A stretch of 61,235 nt of DNA from Escherichia phage slur01. Shown here piece after piece: positions 1-61,235 of the stretch. The stretch lies in sequence record NC_028831.1; one strand, written 5' to 3'. The notes beneath the pieces were generated by a model. The model was given only the letters and a program-made list of their open reading frames with translations. It was not told where the DNA came from and ran no database searches. The translations under genes were made by a program, and so were the position numbers. Within the stretch, counting starts at the first letter, position 1. Each line of letters starts with the position of its first letter.

Positions 1-127
1 CACAGGCATCCCAGGCTGCACGTCCGGACAACCTATAACCACACCATCGCAGGAACCGCCAAAGTGTCCGCCAGCTTCGCTGATACGGAACTGGTGTCCA
101 TTTTCGTCCTGCTGATAGACCTGCATA
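1..127. repeat. 127-bp terminal direct repeat, identical to 61109..61235 (circular permutation or assembly overlap)
   Basis: Bases 1..127 match the last 127 bases of the window exactly; a minus-strand ORF reads through the junction. Confidence 0.9.
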
Positions 128-494: not shown

Positions 495-1382
495 TTACTG
501 CTGCCACGGCGGGACTGCTGCTTGTGCTGGATGCGGTTCAGCTTGCTGCTGCGGCTGAGCTTGCTGCTGAGGTGCTGCTGCCTGACCCGGCTGTGCTACC
601 TGCTGCGCCCACGGCTGCTGGGCTGCTTCCGGTGCTACTGGCTGTTGTACCGGAGCTTGCTGCACTGGCTGCTGTGGTGCTGCGTTTTGAGCAGGATTAT
701 CCCACGGCTGCGGTGCGGCATTCTGCCACGGTTGTGCTGCTGCGCCCTGCTGTGGTGCTGGTTGCTGCTGCACAGGCTGCTGAACTGGCTGCTGTTGCTG
801 CACCGGAGCTTGCTGCTGTACAGGCGCTTGCTGTTGCTGAGCAAACGGGTTAGCTGCTGGTTGCTGTGGTGCTGCGCCCGGGAAAGCTGGCTGCTGAGCT
901 GGCGCACCTGCACCGAACGGGTTAGCTACTGCCGCTTGAGCACCCATTGCTGGAGCACCTGCTTCTTTTTCTGCGTACTTAACCGGATCGTTGATGTTAG
1001 CATAACCGTTAGGCTCGTTGCTGTCTTCATAACCTTCCTGAGAACGAACTTTCAGACGCAGGTTCAGCGGAATGTTATGCAGTTGAGCAGGAGTATCCCA
1101 GCGAATTACGCCAACCGCATGGGAAAGCGCGCCCAGTTGCTCGTATGCAATACGCACAGTATCTTCGTTGTCGTTGATAACGTTGTAACGAGCAAAGATT
1201 TTACGACCTTTAGCAAAACCATCAATAATGCTAAACGTTACCTGGATCGCCATACCGCCATTTTTGGTCGGTTTAAATTCAGATGCTTCAATTACTGCTT
1301 TATACCAACCTTTCGGCAATGCGCCGTAAGAAGGTGCTTGATAGCTGCTCGCGTCAAAGTGGAAATTAGTTGGCATAGTCAT
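495..1382 (-). CDS. SSB-like ssDNA-binding protein with Q/P/A-rich disordered C-terminal tail (likely Sak4 partner)
   Basis: Globular N-terminal domain of about 140 aa followed by a long Gln/Pro/Ala low-complexity tail; start overlaps the upstream stop (TAATG); sits next to a Sak4-type ATPase. Confidence 0.6.
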   Translation of the reverse strand: MTMPTNFHFDASSYQAPSYGALPKGWYKAVIEASEFKPTKNGGMAIQVTFSIIDGFAKGRKIFARYNVINDNEDTVRIAYEQLGALSHAVGVIRWDTPAQLHNIPLNLRLKVRSQEGYEDSNEPNGYANINDPVKYAEKEAGAPAMGAQAAVANPFGAGAPAQQPAFPGAAPQQPAANPFAQQQQAPVQQQAPVQQQQPVQQPVQQQPAPQQGAAAQPWQNAAPQPWDNPAQNAAPQQPVQQAPVQQPVAPEAAQQPWAQQVAQPGQAAAPQQQAQPQQQAEPHPAQAAVPPWQQ

Positions 1383-8051: not shown

Positions 8052-8055
8052 CAAT

Positions 8056-8083
8056 AAAGGGCCTTTCGGCCCTTTATTTATTC
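8056..8083. terminator. Bidirectional rho-independent terminator
   Basis: AAAGGGCC-TTTC-GGCCCTTT hairpin flanked by A-run and T-run; lies between the convergent AP2 and primase genes. Confidence 0.7.
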
Positions 8084-18913: not shown

Positions 18914-18975
18914 TTTTCTTGCTATCACATAACCCTTCATTGTATTGTGTACCCATCGAATAAGAGGGGTACACA

Positions 18976-19161
18976 ATGACCAAACTATACGCCGGATTGT
19001 TTTTATTTGCGACGTTGATGTTCGCTGGGCTTTATACCTATACAGTAGTCGAACAACCTTCCACGGTTATCCGAATCTTTGCAAGTACAGGGCTTTGCAT
19101 CTGTCTTATTCTATTTGTTTTATGCATTGTTATTATCCAAGACCAAAGGAAAATTAAATGA
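18976..19161 (+). CDS. Small membrane protein (two TM helices)
   Basis: Two hydrophobic segments separated by a short loop; RBS GAGGGG. Confidence 0.5.
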   Translation: MTKLYAGLFLFATLMFAGLYTYTVVEQPSTVIRIFASTGLCICLILFVLCIVIIQDQRKIK

Positions 19162-24009: not shown

Positions 24010-25506
24010 ATGGGTATTGATGCAACTCACCCGCTATATGACAAGTGGAAGGATGCATGGGTCAAGTGCAACGACTGCTATGAGGGTGAAGATAAAATTA
24101 AGGAAGAAGGTGTTAAATATCTACCGCCTTTAGCTTCCATGATTATTGATGGGATGAATAATCCTAATGATTTGGGCTTTCAACGTTGGCTCGCTTATCG
24201 TCTGCGTGCTAACTTCCCTGACGATTATTCAAGTGCGGTTACAAACAATTTAGGTCTGCTGCACCAGAAGCCTCCTACAATCCAGCTTCCACCTGAAATG
24301 GAATACATGCGGGAGCTGTGTACTGCGGACGGTGAAGACATTATTGCTCTGCTACGTCGCATCAATGAAATGCAGTTAAAAAATGGACGTTTGGGCCTGC
24401 TGCTGGACTTGCCGAAAGGTGAGGATGTAAATAACAGACCTTATATTAGCGTTTATGATGCTTTATCCATTATCAACTGGGATGATGGTAAAGATGAATT
24501 GGGCAATATCAACTTGAACATGGTTGTTCTGGATGAAAGCGGTCCTGTACGTGTCAATCAGTTTGACTGGAAAGAAGAGAAGCGTTATCGCGTTCTACAA
24601 TTAGGTCCAATGGACACAGATGAAGTAGCAGGTGGAGCGGTCTACTCCCAACATCTGTTTATTAACAATACCAATTATGATGAAGGGCAAATGATTGCTC
24701 CTTATTATAAAGGTAATACGCTGGATGAAATTCCTTTCCAGTTTGTCAATACAACAGATATTACCCCAGCACCGGAAGCGCCGCCATTGTTGGGTCTTGC
24801 TAACATTTGTCTAAGCATGTACCGAAGTGACGCGGATTACCGCCAATGCTTGCATATGCAGGGTCAGGATACTTTAGTTGTTGTTGGTGGTTCCATGGAA
24901 AATGGAGATAAAGCCCCTCAGCGTATTGGTCCTGGTGCAGTCATTAACGTTTCTCAGGGAGGTGACGCTAAATATGTAGGTGTTAGCGGTGACGGTTTGT
25001 CCGAGCAACGTCTTGCACTGGCAGCGGATAAGCAAGAAGCCCAAATTAAAGCCGGGCAAATGGTAAACAACACCAAGAGCACGCAGGAATCAGGCGAAGC
25101 TATGAAAACGCGTATTGCTGCGCGTACAGCTAGTTTGATTCGAATTGCGTATACTGGTGCGGCTGGTTTGGAGAACTTGCTGAAGGTTTGCGCTAAGTGG
25201 ATGGGTGCGGATCCCGAGAAAGTTGTGGTTAAGCCTAATCTTGAATTTACCAAGAGCATGTTTAACGGTCAGGACTTTGTTCAAATTATTACTGCACGCA
25301 ACCTTAAGGCTCCGATTAGCTTGCAGTCTATTCATGGCTGGCTTGTTGATCAGGGCTTAACCACACTAAGCTTTGAAGAAGAAATGGCAATTCTTGAAGA
25401 AGAGCTTAAGAAGTGGCCTCTGCCCGATGATGCTAAAGCTGATTTAAACGCAGAGCAGCAAGTAAGCAAAGATCCTAAGGAAGACGACGCTTCCGATAAA
25501 GAATAG
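24010..25506 (+). CDS. Portal protein
   Basis: 498 aa, between terminase and scaffold genes, acidic C-terminus; RBS GGAGGG. Confidence 0.7.
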   Translation: MGIDATHPLYDKWKDAWVKCNDCYEGEDKIKEEGVKYLPPLASMIIDGMNNPNDLGFQRWLAYRLRANFPDDYSSAVTNNLGLLHQKPPTIQLPPEMEYMRELCTADGEDIIALLRRINEMQLKNGRLGLLLDLPKGEDVNNRPYISVYDALSIINWDDGKDELGNINLNMVVLDESGPVRVNQFDWKEEKRYRVLQLGPMDTDEVAGGAVYSQHLFINNTNYDEGQMIAPYYKGNTLDEIPFQFVNTTDITPAPEAPPLLGLANICLSMYRSDADYRQCLHMQGQDTLVVVGGSMENGDKAPQRIGPGAVINVSQGGDAKYVGVSGDGLSEQRLALAADKQEAQIKAGQMVNNTKSTQESGEAMKTRIAARTASLIRIAYTGAAGLENLLKVCAKWMGADPEKVVVKPNLEFTKSMFNGQDFVQIITARNLKAPISLQSIHGWLVDQGLTTLSFEEEMAILEEELKKWPLPDDAKADLNAEQQVSKDPKEDDASDKE

Positions 25507-25601
25507 TTGCAACTTCCAAGTTGATTGGTTTATATTAACGAACACGGGGCTGGGACGGCTCAGCTCCAAAAACGTCACACGGGTGACAACGGAGATAAGA
25601 A

Positions 25602-26474
25602 ATGAAAAAGAGTTCTGTAGCTATTAGTGTTGGTATGGCTTTAATTAATCCACGCGCTCGCGGTGAAGGTGATGTGGAACTGGAATACGAATATGCATCT
25701 GCGGAAGAGATCCCGGCAGAGTTTGCAACTCTTTACGCAGAGCAGGGCGGTAAATACGTTCTTGCAAAAGTTAAAGGTGTAGCCCCTGCTGATAGCGTTC
25801 GTCGTCTGGAAAGTGCATTGGCAAAAGAACGTAACGACCATCGTCAGGTGAAGCAACAGATTAGCGCACTTGGGCGTCCGGTTGAAGAAGTCCTTGCGGA
25901 CCTTGATCGTATCCCTCAACTGGAAGCTGCCGCTAACGGTAAAGGTACTCCGGAAGACATCGAAAAGATGGTTAAAGCTCGTCTTGCTCCGCTCGAGCGT
26001 CAATTGCAAACTGTAGCAGCTGAACGCGATTCCGTTAAGCAGGAAATTGAAGGCTACCGCACTCGCGAAACTAAAGCGAAGATTAAAGACGCAGTTATTG
26101 CTGCTGCATCCGGTGCTAAGCTGCGTCCGTCTGCTATCGAAGATGCGGTGACTTATGCACAGTTGCAAATGACCGTCGACGAGAACGGCAATGTGGTTAC
26201 GAAAGATGGGGCGGGTGTAACTCCATACCTAACCCCGGCGGATTGGCTTAACGAGATCCTCCCGAAACGTCCTCACTGGGTTGAGGGTTCTGCTGGTGGC
26301 GGTGCATCTGGTCCGGGCGCTGGCGGTCATCACGGTGAAGACCCATACAGTCACGACGGTTGGAACATCTCTAAGCAGATGAATCTCTGGAAAACTAATC
26401 AATCTTTAGCTAAACGCTTAGCTGAAAAGAATGGCGTAGATCCGCTGAAGCCTGTACGTCCTGCTAAGAAATAA
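25602..26474 (+). CDS. Head scaffolding protein
   Basis: Coiled-coil-rich, charged 290-aa protein immediately upstream of the major capsid gene. Confidence 0.6.
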   Translation: MKKSSVAISVGMALINPRARGEGDVELEYEYASAEEIPAEFATLYAEQGGKYVLAKVKGVAPADSVRRLESALAKERNDHRQVKQQISALGRPVEEVLADLDRIPQLEAAANGKGTPEDIEKMVKARLAPLERQLQTVAAERDSVKQEIEGYRTRETKAKIKDAVIAAASGAKLRPSAIEDAVTYAQLQMTVDENGNVVTKDGAGVTPYLTPADWLNEILPKRPHWVEGSAGGGASGPGAGGHHGEDPYSHDGWNISKQMNLWKTNQSLAKRLAEKNGVDPLKPVRPAKK

Positions 26475-26475
26475 G

Positions 26476-26504
26476 TTGACATCCCGACGTCCCTGATGTT
26501 AAGT
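26476..26504 (+). promoter_or_regulatory. Putative sigma70-like promoter TTGACA-17-TTAAGT upstream of the major capsid gene
   Basis: Consensus -35 TTGACA, 17-nt spacer, -10 TTAAGT; overlaps a 10-bp inverted repeat (26490..26520). Confidence 0.4.
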
Positions 26505-26596
26505 TTCAACACATCAGGGACACGGGTTCCTAAACAGCCTTCCACGGGGAAAGGCTACCAACAGTAAACAAATCAATCCTTTTCCTGGAGACAAGT

Positions 26597-27658
26597 ATGT
26601 CTAAATCTAAAATTATTCTGCCATTTGGTCGTGGTGAAACTGACCTGACTCGTTTGACGGATGTCATTGTCCCTGAGATCTTCACTGGTTATGTGCAGAC
26701 GCAGACCGCTGAACTTTCTGCTCTGATTCAATCCGGTGCGGTTGTAATGGACGAGCGTTTATCTGCTAACCTTGCTGGTGCAGGTCTGACTTTTAACGAG
26801 CCGTTCTATAACGACCTGAAAGATGAAGACGAAGATATCGCGGTTGATAAAGGTAATCCGTCAAAACCGTCTAATATCACTACCGGATCTGAAGTTCAGG
26901 TTCGTATGAGTCGTTCAAAATCCTGGGGTTCTGCGGATCTGGTATCAGCTTTGATTGGTAACGACCCAATGACCGCTATCGGTAACCGCGTGTCTGCGTG
27001 GTGGGTCCGCCGTCTGCAAGCTGCATACATCGCAACCTGGAAAGGTGTATTTGCTAATGCGAAGAAATCTCATAACGACGATTTGACTTTCGACATCTCT
27101 GGTTCTTCTTTTGTAAATAACCAGACCAACTTTACCGCGTCTAACTTCATCAACGCAACTGCAACGATGGGTGATGCTGCTCGCGGTCTGACCATGATTA
27201 TGGTACACTCTACCGTTCGTAACCGTATGCGTCAGTTGAACCTGATCGACTTCATTCCGGATGCTCGCGGTGAAACTCAGTTTGAGTATTATCAGGGTCT
27301 GCGTATTATTGAAGACGACTCCATGCCGCACGATCCGTCTACTGGTGTGTTTGAAAGCTGGCTGTTCGGCCCGGGCGCAACTGCAATGGGTGCTGGATCA
27401 CCGAAAGTTCCGACCGCTGTGGTGCGTGACGAAGCCGCTAACCAAGGCGCTGGTGAAGAAGTTCTTCACAACCGTGTTGAATGGATTCTGCATCCGGTTG
27501 GCCATGCTTGGGCTGCTGCTCAAACTGCTAAAGGTGGTCCGTCTAACGCTGCTACCACTAACAACCTGGCCCATGAAGATTCCTGGCGTCGTGCGTTCCC
27601 TGAGCGCAAGCAGCTTAAAGTTGCACGCCTGATTACTCGTGAGTATCAGGGTTCCTAA
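26597..27658 (+). CDS. Major capsid protein
   Basis: 353 aa, follows the scaffold gene, followed by a strong terminator. Confidence 0.75.
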   Translation: MSKSKIILPFGRGETDLTRLTDVIVPEIFTGYVQTQTAELSALIQSGAVVMDERLSANLAGAGLTFNEPFYNDLKDEDEDIAVDKGNPSKPSNITTGSEVQVRMSRSKSWGSADLVSALIGNDPMTAIGNRVSAWWVRRLQAAYIATWKGVFANAKKSHNDDLTFDISGSSFVNNQTNFTASNFINATATMGDAARGLTMIMVHSTVRNRMRQLNLIDFIPDARGETQFEYYQGLRIIEDDSMPHDPSTGVFESWLFGPGATAMGAGSPKVPTAVVRDEAANQGAGEEVLHNRVEWILHPVGHAWAAAQTAKGGPSNAATTNNLAHEDSWRRAFPERKQLKVARLITREYQGS

Positions 27659-27689: not shown

Positions 27690-27716
27690 GGGGACATCTT
27701 ATGTCCCCTCTTTTTT
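27690..27716 (+). terminator. Rho-independent terminator after the major capsid gene
   Basis: GGGGACAT-CTT-ATGTCCCC hairpin followed by TCTTTTTT. Confidence 0.8.
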
Positions 27717-27728
27717 AGGAGAACAACC

Positions 27729-60628: not shown

Positions 60629-61235
60629 TCAATCTTTCCCGTAATAATTAGCTACTTGATAGTTTTGACAACCAACTTTCTGTCCTTGCGTATCCACTGC
60701 GGCGGAATGGAAATTGCAATACCATGTTCCATCTTCTTTTGGTTCAAGGAATTGACATGTGCGGCAGTTTACTTCCGGCATAGTTTTACGCCAGCATAGT
60801 GAGGAGTGATCGCACCATTTACATTCGAAGAAAGTGGAATCTTTAAATGCGCGGTCCGGAATATCTGTAGCAATAGCAATCTGCACACCACGATCAATAT
60901 ACATGTCCGCGGTAACAGGATCAAACGGAATAATTTCTGCGTAAACTTCATCGTCATTCTTGTTTACAGCAAGATATAACGCTGCGCCAAGACCTAGTTT
61001 TCGCATGTACACGTTCATCTGTACATAGTGCTCAGGTTTGGCTTCTTTAACACCTTTAGCTTTCAGCTTTTTAAAAGACTTATCGTTATGCGTCTTCATT
61101 TCGGTGAGCACAGGCATCCCAGGCTGCACGTCCGGACAACCTATAACCACACCATCGCAGGAACCGCCAAAGTGTCCGCCAGCTTCGCTGATACGGAACT
61201 GGTGTCCATTTTCGTCCTGCTGATAGACCTGCATA
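60629..61235 (-). CDS. 3' part of the YqaJ/lambda-Exo-like PD-(D/E)xK exonuclease (5' part at 1..429 across the junction)
   Basis: In frame with the 1..429 segment through the terminal repeat; C-terminal Cys cluster CKWC...CWRK...CRTC; total about 302 aa. Confidence 0.7.
   Translation of the reverse strand, partial: MQVYQQDENGHQFRISEAGGHFGGSCDGVVIGCPDVQPGMPVLTEMKTHNDKSFKKLKAKGVKEAKPEHYVQMNVYMRKLGLGAALYLAVNKNDDEVYAEIIPFDPVTADMYIDRGVQIAIATDIPDRAFKDSTFFECKWCDHSSLCWRKTMPEVNCRTCQFLEPKEDGTWYCNFHSAAVDTQGQKVGCQNYQVANYYGKD
61109..61235. repeat. 127-bp terminal direct repeat, identical to 1..127
   Basis: Exact identity with the first 127 bases of the window. Confidence 0.9.

What the first reader, a model, noticed from the sequence alone, without database searches (positions are those of the whole stretch)
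26476..26520. Consensus-like promoter overlapping a hairpin immediately upstream of the major capsid gene
TTGACA-17 nt-TTAAGT lies about 95 nt upstream of the capsid start codon, and a 10-bp inverted repeat (TCCCTGATGT/ACATCAGGGA) overlaps the -10 element. The arrangement suggests regulated late expression, with the repeat acting as an operator or RNA structure. The capsid gene is followed by the strongest terminator in the window.
Basis: seen in the sequence. Interest (0 to 1): 0.35.

Follow-up and report, generated by a model that had tools for sequence, protein, structure and literature searches.

The report
Capsid promoter embedded in RNA hairpin
Just upstream of the major capsid gene of this Seurat-like E. 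coli phage lies a probable host-type promoter whose -10 element sits in the loop of a conserved RNA hairpin. This hairpin can form only in transcripts arriving from upstream, and it masks one of two small, apparently undescribed "ACGG-loop" leader hairpins that mark the scaffold and capsid mRNAs across a wide group of phages.

Summary
TTGACA is at 26476-26481. A perfect 11-bp inverted repeat (26489-26499 / 26511-26521) encloses the -10 region. The capsid gene (26597-27658) ends in a canonical terminator.

The promoter match alone is at chance level (1 found, 1.32 expected). Comparative data support it: a sigma-70-type promoter occupies the same place in 45 of 75 distinct capsid leaders, against 2 of 75 coding controls. 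The best -10 register is TGtTAAGTT with an 18-nt spacer, not TTAAGT.

The inverted repeat is not an operator. Its arms differ completely between genera but stay complementary, arm spacing varies, and internal mismatches are G.U (11) and never A.C (0). It is therefore a plus-strand RNA hairpin (H0). Its 5' arm lies inside the promoter spacer, so it exists only in read-through transcripts.

H0 is mutually exclusive with hairpin A, a 5'-terminal hairpin with a C-[AYGG]-G apex. Hairpin A and a second such hairpin (B) form the leader of promoter-initiated capsid mRNA. A similar promoter plus two ACGG hairpins precedes the scaffold gene.

The AYGG motif is clade-wide, matched nothing in Rfam 15, and I found no published description. 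Its function is inferred, not shown. No transcription-start data were found.

The parts
25507..25536 (+). Promoter-like site upstream of the scaffold gene (TTGCAA - 18 nt - TATATT). It starts directly after the portal stop codon.
   Evidence: Listed by the promoter scan; sequence. The match is only 9 of 12. It is supported mainly by its design matching that of the capsid leader.
25546..25567 (+). Scaffold-leader hairpin A': GGGGCUGGG-ACGG-CUCAGCUCC (9 bp, ACGG tetraloop). It starts about 2-5 nt after the predicted transcription start.
   Evidence: Predicted energy -13.8 kcal/mol.
25574..25587 (+). Scaffold-leader hairpin B': GUCAC-ACGG-GUGAC, 14 nt before the scaffold ATG.
   Evidence: Relatives also carry AUGG hairpins in their scaffold leaders.
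25602..26474 (+). Head scaffolding protein gene. It is the source of read-through transcripts that contain the whole of H0.
   Evidence: phrog_206, E = 2e-44. ORF list.
26476..26481 (+). -35 hexamer TTGACA, 2 nt after the scaffold stop codon.
   Evidence: TTGAC is invariant in 8 of 8 aligned relatives. TTGACA, TTGCAA or TTTACT occupies the same place in distant genera.
26497..26505 (+). Extended -10: TG-t-TAAGTT (hexamer 26500-26505, 18-nt spacer). It lies at the 5' end of the H0 loop.
   Evidence: The homologous hexamers are TAGTTT, TAATTT, TAAATT, TACATT and TACTGT, which all keep T1, A2 and T6.
26511..26513 (+). Predicted transcription start, 6-8 nt after the -10. This is an inference and has not been mapped.
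   Evidence: Standard sigma-70 geometry. In 41 of 45 leaders with a good promoter, the first hairpin starts 3-10 nt after the -10.
26483..26526 (+). It has an 11-bp core (26489-26499 / 26511-26521), an outer helix CCCG/CGGG and an 11-nt loop containing the -10. It can form only in read-through RNA.
   Evidence: -23.4 kcal/mol, pair probability about 1.0 in read-through RNA. Conservation of structure with changed sequence.
26516..26531 (+). Leader hairpin A: AGGGAC-ACGG-GUUCCU. It is 5'-terminal on promoter-initiated RNA. Its 5' arm and loop overlap the 3' arm of H0, so the two structures are mutually exclusive.
   Evidence: Probability of A is 0.78 in promoter-initiated RNA and 0.00 in read-through RNA.
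26536..26556 (+). Leader hairpin B: AGCCUUCC-ACGG-GG(A)AAGGCU. The 18-nt core GCCTTCCAYGGGGAAAGG is identical in all 8 aligned relatives except at the Y position.
   Evidence: Predicted energy -9.0 kcal/mol. Top hit of model R1.
26578..26590 (+). CCUUUUCCUG (26578-26587) followed by the Shine-Dalgarno GGAG (26587-26590). The first segment can pair with the 3' arm of hairpin B (26545-26554) as an alternative to B.
   Evidence: pair probability 0.67-0.9. A CTTTCC segment is conserved in the alignment.
26597..27658 (+). Major capsid (head) protein gene.
   Evidence: phrog_247, E = 2e-104. 100% identical to the capsid protein of phage Skure.
27690..27717 (+). Intrinsic terminator: GGGGACAU-CUU-AUGUCCCC followed by UCUUUUUU. 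It closes the promoter-capsid unit.
   Evidence: Annotated as a terminator in the Seurat and SA126VB records. A strict terminator lies within 110 nt of the capsid stop in 35 of 71 relatives, against 5 of 270 control windows.

Best explanation
**What it is.** The site is an internal host-type (sigma-70) promoter for the major capsid gene. It lies inside a conserved structured leader.

**How it most likely works (inferred).**
1. Host RNA polymerase starts at about 26511-26513 and stops at the terminator at 27690-27717. This gives an abundant single-gene capsid mRNA of about 1.2 kb.
2. The 5' end of that mRNA folds at once into hairpin A (26516-26531). Hairpin B (26536-56) can follow, though the folding model favours an alternative pairing of its 3' arm (probability 0.32 against 0.67). 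Both hairpins have an ACGG tetraloop closed by a C-G pair.
3. Polymerases arriving from the scaffold-gene promoter (25507-25536) or further upstream transcribe the promoter itself. In those RNAs the spacer segment 26483-26499 pairs with 26511-26526 to form the strong hairpin H0. H0 consumes the 5' arm and loop of hairpin A.
4. It is not an operator and not a structure on the promoter's own transcript.

**Most likely roles (inferred).**
- Hairpin A acts as a 5'-terminal stabilising and identity element of capsid mRNA.
- H0 acts as an intercistronic barrier or processing hairpin. It would protect the 3' end of scaffold mRNA, or be cut by a double-strand-specific RNase, so that read-through RNA is converted into, or kept distinct from, the promoter-initiated form.

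**What is shown.** The sequence features, their conservation, covariation, strand-specific G.U pattern, mutual exclusivity in folding models, and positional linkage to the promoter.

**What is inferred.** The transcription start, promoter activity, and every functional consequence.
For: **Promoter**
- TTGAC and the TAnnTT hexamer are conserved while the flanking sequence diverges.
- The best promoter score is at least 9.5 in 45 of 75 distinct capsid leaders, against 2 of 75 equal-length coding windows.
- Spacing is 17-18 nt throughout.
- No RNA polymerase or sigma factor is annotated in the first 50 kb of the 56.6-kb genome of the close relative Bas21.
- A terminator follows the capsid gene in 35 of 71 relatives, against 5 of 270 controls.

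**H0 as an RNA structure**
- The perfect 11-bp repeat is rare in the window.
- Stems of score 10 or more enclosing the -10 occur in 17 of 75 leaders from about 8 lineages. They occur at 0.07% of random positions.
- Arm sequences are unrelated between lineages.
- Single internal mismatches are 11 G.U, 0 A.C and 1 other.
- The two substitutions in the STP-SP5 stem both turn G-C into G.U.

**Mutual exclusivity**
- The probability of hairpin A is 0.78 in promoter-initiated RNA and 0.00 in read-through RNA.
- The same switch is predicted in 11 of 24 leaders, and never in the reverse direction.

**Leader hairpins**
- CAYGGG occurs at 9.8 per kb in leaders, against 0.88 per kb in coding sequence.
- 63% of leader copies sit on a stem of at least 4 bp, against 6.6% of coding copies.
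- At stem layers 2-4 there are 47 G.U and 9 A.C pairs.
- The first hairpin starts 3-10 nt after the -10 in 41 of 45 leaders.
- The covariation score is 0.77, against 0.21 in shuffles. The hairpin set used for that count was chosen partly by stem.
Against: - No transcription-start or RNA-end data were found for any phage of this clade.
- The promoter match is at chance level within this window alone.
- The -10 hexamer TAAGTT is weak (3 of 6).
- Only about a quarter of leaders have a long H0. Vibrio-type leaders instead place a long AUGG hairpin with a U-tract right after the promoter. H0 is therefore not essential to the design.
- In the window's folding model, hairpin B competes with a long-range pairing (probability 0.32 against 0.67).
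- The lineages are not phylogenetically independent in all counts. For example, the NP1-like group contributes 5 of the 11 G.U mismatches.
- The conserved AYGG apex is not explained by a plain stabiliser role.
Confidence: 0.6

Rival explanations
1. H0 is an intrinsic (rho-independent) terminator or strong pause for transcripts of the scaffold gene. The promoter then re-initiates transcription for the capsid gene. This would be a composite terminator/promoter, like the PeSL cassettes of T4-type phages.
For: - The SA126VB GenBank record annotates exactly this hairpin as a rho-independent terminator found by TransTermHP/WebGeSTer.
- The hairpin is strong (-23.4 kcal/mol) and begins 9 nt after the stop codon.
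- In two lineages (L021, L023) the equivalent stem is followed by a U-rich run.
- PeSL composite terminator/promoter elements are documented (PMC4122927).
Against: - In the window the stem is followed by ACGGGUUCCUAAAC, with no U-tract, and the terminator scan did not list it.
- Most lineages with H0 lack a U-tract.
- The conserved overlap of the H0 3' arm with hairpin A is not needed for termination.
Confidence: 0.15
2. H0 is an RNase III (or other double-strand RNase) processing site. Cutting it releases a capsid mRNA with nearly the same 5' end as the promoter-initiated RNA and leaves a protective 3' hairpin stub on scaffold mRNA. This would resemble the paired promoter and RNase III sites of phage T7. 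It is a specific sub-case of the best explanation.
For: - H0 has a 15-bp helix with a small internal loop, and its structure is conserved.
- In T7, promoters and RNase III sites are adjacent (R3.8 with phi3.8, R6.5 with phi6.5), with the start site lying just upstream of the cut (PMC6938266).
Against: - H0 is shorter than classical RNase III substrates, which are about two helical turns (from my own knowledge).
- In T7 the promoter's own RNA still contains the cleavage hairpin, whereas here it cannot.
- No cleavage data exist.
- Hosts of the clade are very diverse.
Confidence: 0.2
3. The inverted repeat is a DNA operator for a dimeric phage or host protein that represses or activates the capsid promoter by binding across the -10 element.
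For: There is perfect 11-bp dyad symmetry centred on the -10 and start region. A putative DNA-binding protein is annotated in the close relative Bas21.
Against: - Half-site sequences are completely different in sister genera.
- The arms are 9-16 bp long with 7-22 nt between them, so centre-to-centre distance is about 20-35 bp.
- Symmetry is kept through G.T but never A.C mismatches (11 against 0), which is a signature of RNA, not duplex DNA.
Confidence: 0.05
4. There is no active promoter. The TTGACA...TAAGTT resemblance is incidental to a purely RNA-level intercistronic element, and the capsid gene is transcribed only by read-through.
For: The pattern is at chance frequency in the window. The -10 is poor. 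There are no start-site data.
Against: - A promoter-like pair at fixed 17-18 nt spacing recurs in 45 of 75 leaders against 2 of 75 controls.
- Conservation falls on exactly the promoter-informative bases, whereas the RNA arms drift.
- Leader hairpins start at a fixed short distance after the -10.
Confidence: 0.1

Closest known systems
Internal sigma-70 promoters in front of phage major capsid genes, with a downstream terminator (for example T7 phi10-gene 10-Tphi, or the T4 gene 23 late promoter). From my own knowledge.
   Same: A dedicated promoter directly upstream of the most abundant virion protein and a terminator directly after it give a short, highly abundant mRNA on top of the polycistronic late transcripts.
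   Different: Here the promoter is of the host sigma-70 type. T7 uses a phage RNA polymerase and T4 uses gp55. This promoter is also physically interleaved with an RNA hairpin.
Paired promoter and RNase III sites of phage T7 (R3.8/phi3.8, R6.5/phi6.5; PMC6938266, citing Dunn and Studier 1983)
   Same: A promoter and an intercistronic double-stranded RNA element occupy the same few tens of bases. Read-through and newly initiated mRNAs therefore end up with similar 5' regions.
   Different: [quoted passage not shown]
- Here the start lies inside the hairpin, so only read-through RNA carries it.
- RNase III cleavage is not shown here.
PeSL (promoter-early stem-loop) composite terminator/promoter cassettes of T4-type phages (PMC2839356, PMC4122927)
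   Same: A stem-loop is combined with a near-consensus sigma-70 promoter, a Shine-Dalgarno sequence and a start codon in one compact intergenic cassette.
   Different: - PeSL stem-loops lie just upstream of the promoter. They are repeated many times in hyperplastic early regions and are linked to recombinational shuffling.
- Here the stem encloses the -10.
- The element is single-copy, precedes a core late gene, and is conserved by covariation rather than by sequence.
5'-terminal stem-loops that stabilise bacterial mRNAs (ompA type), and the C(UUCG)G intercistronic hairpins of phage T4. From my own knowledge.
   Same: These are short hairpins within a few nucleotides of the mRNA 5' end or between cistrons, with a defined tetraloop closed by a C-G pair.
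   Different: - The loop here is AYGG. To my recollection it is not on the list of unusually stable tetraloops.
- The hairpins occur in pairs.
- In this phage they are restricted to the scaffold and capsid leaders, which suggests specific recognition rather than generic stability.

Membership tests
Sigma-70 (host housekeeping) promoter | -35 hexamer close to TTGACA | tested here: met
   TTGACA at 26476-26481 is a 6 of 6 match. TTGAC is invariant in 8 relatives.
Sigma-70 (host housekeeping) promoter | -10 hexamer TAnnnT at 16-18 nt, optionally preceded by TGn | tested here: met
   TAAGTT at 26500-26505 with an 18-nt spacer and TG at 26497-26498. It matches only 3 of 6 consensus bases but keeps T1, A2 and T6. 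The homologous hexamers keep the same three bases.
Sigma-70 (host housekeeping) promoter | More frequent than chance, or conserved in position | tested here: met
   Within the window the match is at chance level (1 found, 1.32 expected). Across relatives it is met: 45 of 75 leaders against 2 of 75 coding controls.
Sigma-70 (host housekeeping) promoter | Primary transcript 5' end 6-8 nt downstream of the -10 | not testable with these tools
   No start-site data were found for Queuovirinae or relatives.
Intrinsic (rho-independent) terminator, as H0 is annotated in OL960573 | G+C-rich stem-loop | tested here: met
   11 + 4 bp, -23.4 kcal/mol.
Intrinsic (rho-independent) terminator, as H0 is annotated in OL960573 | Run of U directly after the stem | tested here: not met
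   The tail is ACGGGUUCCUAAAC. The site was not listed by the terminator scan. Most relatives lack a U-tract.
Protein operator (dyad-symmetric DNA site) | Half-site sequence conserved among related phages and fixed half-site spacing | tested here: not met
   The arms are unrelated in sequence. The gaps between them are 7-22 nt.
Protein operator (dyad-symmetric DNA site) | Symmetry breaks show no preference for G.T over A.C | tested here: not met
   11 G.T, 0 A.C and 1 other.
RNase III processing site | Double-stranded RNA of roughly two helical turns, often with an internal loop | tested here: inconclusive
   15 bp with a 2x1 internal loop in the window. Relatives have 9-16 bp uninterrupted.
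RNase III processing site | Staggered cleavage in vivo that depends on rnc | not testable with these tools
   No data.
Any Rfam 15 RNA family | Covariance-model match | tested here: not met
   Only chance-level hits (E = 3.5-9) in window 26300-26800. Nothing relevant in 15 diverse relatives' loci at E <= 1.
PeSL composite terminator/promoter cassette | Stem-loop just upstream of the promoter; many copies per genome in variable early regions | tested here: not met
   The stem encloses the -10. The repeat sequence occurs once in the window. It precedes a core late gene.

The most novel reading that the evidence does not exclude
The paired hairpins with a C-[AYGG]-G apex may be a previously uncatalogued, clade-wide cis-regulatory RNA signal.

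- In this phage they mark only the scaffold and capsid mRNAs.
- They would be read by a specific trans-acting factor. Candidates are a head-module protein giving autogenous balance of scaffold and capsid synthesis, or RNA polymerase or the ribosome.
- The promoter-embedded anti-hairpin H0 would then be a device that makes the signal depend on where transcription started. The same DNA would yield 'marked' capsid mRNA from the internal promoter and 'unmarked' capsid mRNA from read-through.
Probability: 0.25. Interest if true: 0.7.

Novelty: new variant of a known kind. Interest (0 to 1): 0.5.

Why it matters
Taken at face value, an internal promoter before a capsid gene is ordinary. Three things are less ordinary.

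1. **Origin-dependent folding.** The promoter spacer doubles as one arm of a conserved RNA hairpin. The 5' leader therefore folds differently depending on which promoter made the RNA. This is a compact way to give two mRNA populations of one gene different fates.

2. **A conserved, uncatalogued loop motif.** The AYGG tetraloop has a fixed apex, freely covarying stems and a G.U bias. It is found upstream of capsid genes, and often scaffold genes, in phages of Escherichia, Salmonella, Klebsiella, Providencia, Pseudomonas, Vibrio and Stenotrophomonas, and in many uncultured hosts. It matched nothing in Rfam 15.

3. **A testable handle.** In this whole genome the motif occurs only in front of the two proteins needed in the highest copy number for procapsid assembly. 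That gives a way to test how siphoviruses set the scaffold-to-capsid ratio.

There are also practical uses. The GenBank annotation of this hairpin as a terminator is probably wrong. The promoter-leader-terminator cassette is also a candidate strong expression module for phage engineering.

Tried and rejected
- **Rfam searches.** Searches of the region and of 15 diverse relatives' loci found no family.
- **Single-hairpin covariance model.** Model R1, built from 70 anchored hairpins, carried too little information (0.62 bits per position). Only hairpin B reached E = 0.11 in the window. Hairpin A, although in the training set, scored below the E <= 10 cut-off. The model cannot be used for discovery.
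- **RNAalifold across genera.** On a cross-genus alignment it recovered only hairpin A (4 pairs, 2 compensatory). H0 is in a different register in each lineage. H0 was therefore tested with register-free stem searches against a positional background instead.
- **First covariation count.** The count used hairpins chosen partly by their stems and is biased. It was redone with motif-only selection.
- **Literature searches for start-site or RNA-seq data.** Searches on Seuratvirus, Queuovirinae and phage 9g found none.
- **CsrA/RsmA-type GGA-loop sites.** Considered and rejected, because hairpin A in the window and the NP1-type hairpins contain no GGA.
- **Start-codon mimicry by AUG in the loop.** Rejected, because the enterobacterial phages have ACG there.
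- **Loop-loop kissing through palindromic CAUG.** Rejected, because CACG is not self-complementary.
- **N4-type single-stranded hairpin promoters.** These came to mind, but the stem and loop sizes do not fit (from memory). No RNA polymerase is annotated in the first 50 kb of the 56.6-kb record of the close relative Bas21.
- **More distant capsid relatives.** SPP1, BcepGomr, Kagunavirus and Jerseyvirus (30-35% capsid identity) have scaffold-capsid gaps of only 2-32 nt. The leader is therefore specific to the clade with at least 46% capsid identity.
- **Terminator scan.** One scan call failed on a range limit. As a result about 27 kb of the window was not scanned for terminators.

Full report
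**Identity of the window.** The 61,235-base window is a complete, circularly assembled genome; bases 1-127 repeat at 61109-61235. It is a Seuratvirus (Queuovirinae), about 99% identical in the head region to E. coli phages CAjan, Skure and Seurat. The finding lies in the 122-nt gap between the head scaffolding gene (25602-26474; phrog_206) and the major head protein gene (26597-27658; phrog_247). The portal gene (24010-25506) lies upstream.

**The observation.**
- TTGACA is at 26476-26481, 2 nt after the scaffold stop codon.
- The inverted repeat is real and is in fact 11 bp: GTCCCTGATGT at 26489-26499 and ACATCAGGGAC at 26511-26521. An outer CCCG/CGGG helix (26483-26486 / 26523-26526) extends it.
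- Perfect hairpin repeats of at least 11 bp are rare here: 4 distinct ones, against 0.5 in shuffles.
- The promoter pattern is not rare. TTGACA-N17/18-TANNNT occurs once, against 1.32 expected. The sequence alone therefore cannot establish a promoter.
One base further on, TAAGTT (26500-26505, 18-nt spacer) has T1, A2 and T6 and is preceded by TG at 26497-26498, which makes an extended -10.
- The terminator at 27690-27708 is canonical. Others of similar quality exist in the parts of the window that were scanned.

**Comparative evidence for the promoter.**
- I aligned the gap from Seuratviruses of decreasing similarity (ECP2304, STP-SP5, yong3) and from the Klebsiella and Enterobacter phages K4PH164 and EC151. 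TTGAC is invariant, and the -10 column reads TAAGTT, TAGTTT or TAATTT.
- Phages whose capsids are only 46-55% identical keep a -35-like hexamer (TTGACA, TTGCAA, TTTACT) at 17-18 nt from a TAnnnT hexamer. These are Providencia PSTCR4, Nonagvirus JenP2, Pseudomonas NP1, Vibrio CHI and VpKK5, and Stenotrophomonas BUCT548.
- I then fetched 80 further loci from IMG/VR using a capsid profile.
- Over 75 distinct leaders, a simple sigma-70 score of at least 9.5 is reached in 45. Only 2 of 75 equal-length windows inside the capsid gene reach it.
- The first 50 kb of the 56.6-kb genome of the close relative Bas21 has no annotated RNA polymerase or sigma factor.
- A strict intrinsic terminator follows the capsid gene in 35 of 71 relatives, against 5 of 270 control windows.
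- I therefore regard a promoter-capsid-terminator unit as well supported, although no start site has been mapped in any of these phages.

**The inverted repeat is an RNA hairpin, not an operator.**
- A stem that encloses the -10 recurs in Seuratvirus, Nonagvirus (two forms), NP1-like phages, BUCT548 and several uncultured lineages (L021, L023, L066, L074).
- 17 of 75 leaders have a stem score of at least 10. Only 0.07% of random positions in the same loci do.
- The arms share no sequence between lineages. They range from 9 to 16 bp and are separated by 7-22 nt.
- When stems were seeded with Watson-Crick pairs only, the single internal mismatches flanked by further pairs were 11 G.T, 0 A.C and 1 other. 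This asymmetry is expected for plus-strand RNA and not for a protein-binding DNA palindrome.
- Within Seuratvirus, the two stem substitutions of STP-SP5 both convert G-C to G.U.
- The 5' arm lies between the -35 and the -10, so RNA started at this promoter cannot contain it. The hairpin, which I call H0, can exist only in read-through transcripts from the scaffold gene.
- The SA126VB record annotates H0 as a rho-independent terminator. There is no U-tract (ACGGGUUCCUAAAC), and the terminator scan does not list it.

**The context that explains H0: AYGG leader hairpins.**
- Downstream of the -10, nearly all leaders carry two, and sometimes three, small hairpins. Their apex is an AUGG or ACGG tetraloop closed by a C-G pair. 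They lie at about -105 to -80 and -65 to -50 relative to the capsid start.
- In the window these are hairpin A, AGGGAC-ACGG-GUUCCU (26516-26531), and hairpin B, AGCCUUCC-ACGG-GG(A)AAGGCU (26536-26556). The core of B is identical in all eight aligned relatives except at one Y position.
- With motif-only selection, which has no stem requirement, CAYGGG is 11-fold enriched in leaders over coding sequence (9.8 against 0.88 per kb).
- 63% of leader copies cap an uninterrupted stem of at least 4 bp, against 6.6% of coding copies.
- At stem layers 2-4, G.U outnumbers A.C by 47 to 9.
- The first hairpin begins 3-10 nt after the -10 in 41 of 45 leaders with a good promoter. That places it at the very 5' end of the predicted transcript.
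- No Rfam 15 family matches.

**H0 and hairpin A are alternatives.**
- The 3' arm of H0 (26511-26526) covers the 5' arm and loop of hairpin A.
- In partition-function folding, read-through RNA forms H0 with probability about 1.0 and hairpin A with probability 0.00. RNA starting at 26512 forms hairpin A with probability 0.78.
- The same direction of switch is predicted in 11 of 24 testable leaders (Seuratvirus, NP1-like, one Nonagvirus-like). The reverse is never predicted.
- Lineages without H0 form hairpin A in both contexts.

**A second module.**
- In the whole window, ACGG-loop hairpins with good stems occur at only four places, all on the plus strand. Two are in the capsid leader. The other two are in the portal-scaffold gap: GGGGCUGGG-ACGG-CUCAGCUCC (25546-25567) and GUCAC-ACGG-GUGAC (25574-25587).
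- These two follow a promoter-like TTGCAA-18-TATATT (25507-25536).
- The scaffold leaders of many relatives also carry AUGG hairpins.
- Phages with more distant capsids (SPP1, BcepGomr, Kagunavirus, Jerseyvirus) have scaffold-capsid gaps of only 2-32 nt and no such leader.

**Mechanism.**
- Shown: the sequence features, their conservation and covariation, the RNA-strand signature, the positional coupling of promoter and first hairpin, and the predicted mutual exclusivity.
- Inferred: host RNA polymerase starts near 26512 and makes a capsid mRNA of about 1.2 kb. This mRNA would be capped by a 5'-terminal hairpin and closed by the terminator hairpin, a design expected to give a stable, abundant message.
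- Inferred: read-through RNA instead forms H0 between the two cistrons.
- What H0 achieves is open. It could be a barrier to exonucleases or to RNase E scanning, a double-strand RNase site comparable to the adjacent promoter and RNase III pairs of T7 (PMC6938266), or a deliberate masking of hairpin A.
- The invariant AYGG apex argues that hairpins A and B are recognised by something. A simple stabiliser would not need a fixed loop. I could not identify the partner.

**Comparison with known systems.**
- The closest known arrangements are the internal capsid promoters of T7 and T4, the T7 phi/R pairs, the PeSL terminator/promoter cassettes of T4-type phages (PMC4122927), and 5'-terminal or C(UUCG)G stabilising hairpins.
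- The element resembles each of these in part but fits none fully.
  - Unlike PeSLs, the stem encloses the -10 and the element is single-copy.
  - Unlike the T7 pairs, the promoter's own RNA lacks the hairpin.
  - Unlike generic stabilisers, the loop is fixed and restricted to two genes.

**Verdict.**
There is a promoter and an RNA structure. There is no operator, and no evidence of regulated initiation.
- The more interesting result is the clade-wide AYGG leader motif together with the promoter-embedded anti-hairpin. I found no description of them in Rfam or in the papers searched. They are testable with standard 5' end mapping and reporter experiments.

Noticed in passing
window 25507-25601: The portal-scaffold gap repeats the design of the capsid leader. 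It has a promoter-like TTGCAA-18-TATATT, then two ACGG-tetraloop hairpins (25546-25567 and 25574-25587), then the Shine-Dalgarno sequence and the scaffold ATG. The SA126VB record annotates part of this gap as a terminator.
   Followed up: partly
window 26545-26554 with 26578-26587: The 3' arm of hairpin B (CGGGGAAAGG) can pair instead with CCUUUUCCUG, which abuts the Shine-Dalgarno GGAG. The predicted probability is 0.67-0.9, against 0.04-0.32 for hairpin B itself. EC151 (GGAAAGGU/ACCUUUCC) and K4PH164 (GGAAAG[G]CUU/AAGCUUUCC) look compensatory. This may be a translational switch. It was not tested statistically.
   Followed up: partly
window 26476-26481 (the GA within TTGACA), and the genome as a whole: CAjan DNA carries preQ0 (7-deazaguanine) at GA and GGC motifs (PMC7544227). 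The G of the invariant -35 TTGACA sits in a GA. It is therefore expected to be modified in the major groove, where sigma region 4 reads the -35. The effect on promoter use is unknown.
   Followed up: no
L011, L013, L034, L045, L077 (leaders of Vibrio-type and uncultured relatives): In these lineages hairpin A is long (11-19 bp) and is followed by a U-run directly after the promoter. An example is AAAUGCAACUC-AUGG-GAGUUGCAUUU followed by UUAUUU. It looks like a leader terminator or attenuator rather than a short 5' hairpin, and there is no H0.
   Followed up: partly
L010, L026, L029, L033, L060, L072, L074, L075, L085 (leaders of NP1-like relatives): A third conserved helix, UCGAGU...ACUUGA, with variants that keep the pairing, lies between hairpin B and the Shine-Dalgarno sequence. 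It is absent from the window.
   Followed up: no
window 1-127 and 61109-61235: An exact 127-nt direct repeat at the two ends of the window. It is an assembly overlap of a circular or circularly permuted genome, not a biological terminal repeat as far as can be told.
   Followed up: no
window 523-906: A dense, imperfect tandem-like array of GCTGCTG/GCTTGCTG units (11 copies of a 45-nt family, spaced by multiples of 3). It probably encodes a low-complexity protein segment.
   Followed up: no
window 40186-40213, 18944-18977, 8053-8078: These are the other three perfect hairpin repeats of at least 11 bp in the genome. The repeat at 40186-40213 is AATTAACCCCTC/GAGGGGTTAATT. The repeat at 8053-8078 looks like a terminator. 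The other two are unexplained.
   Followed up: no
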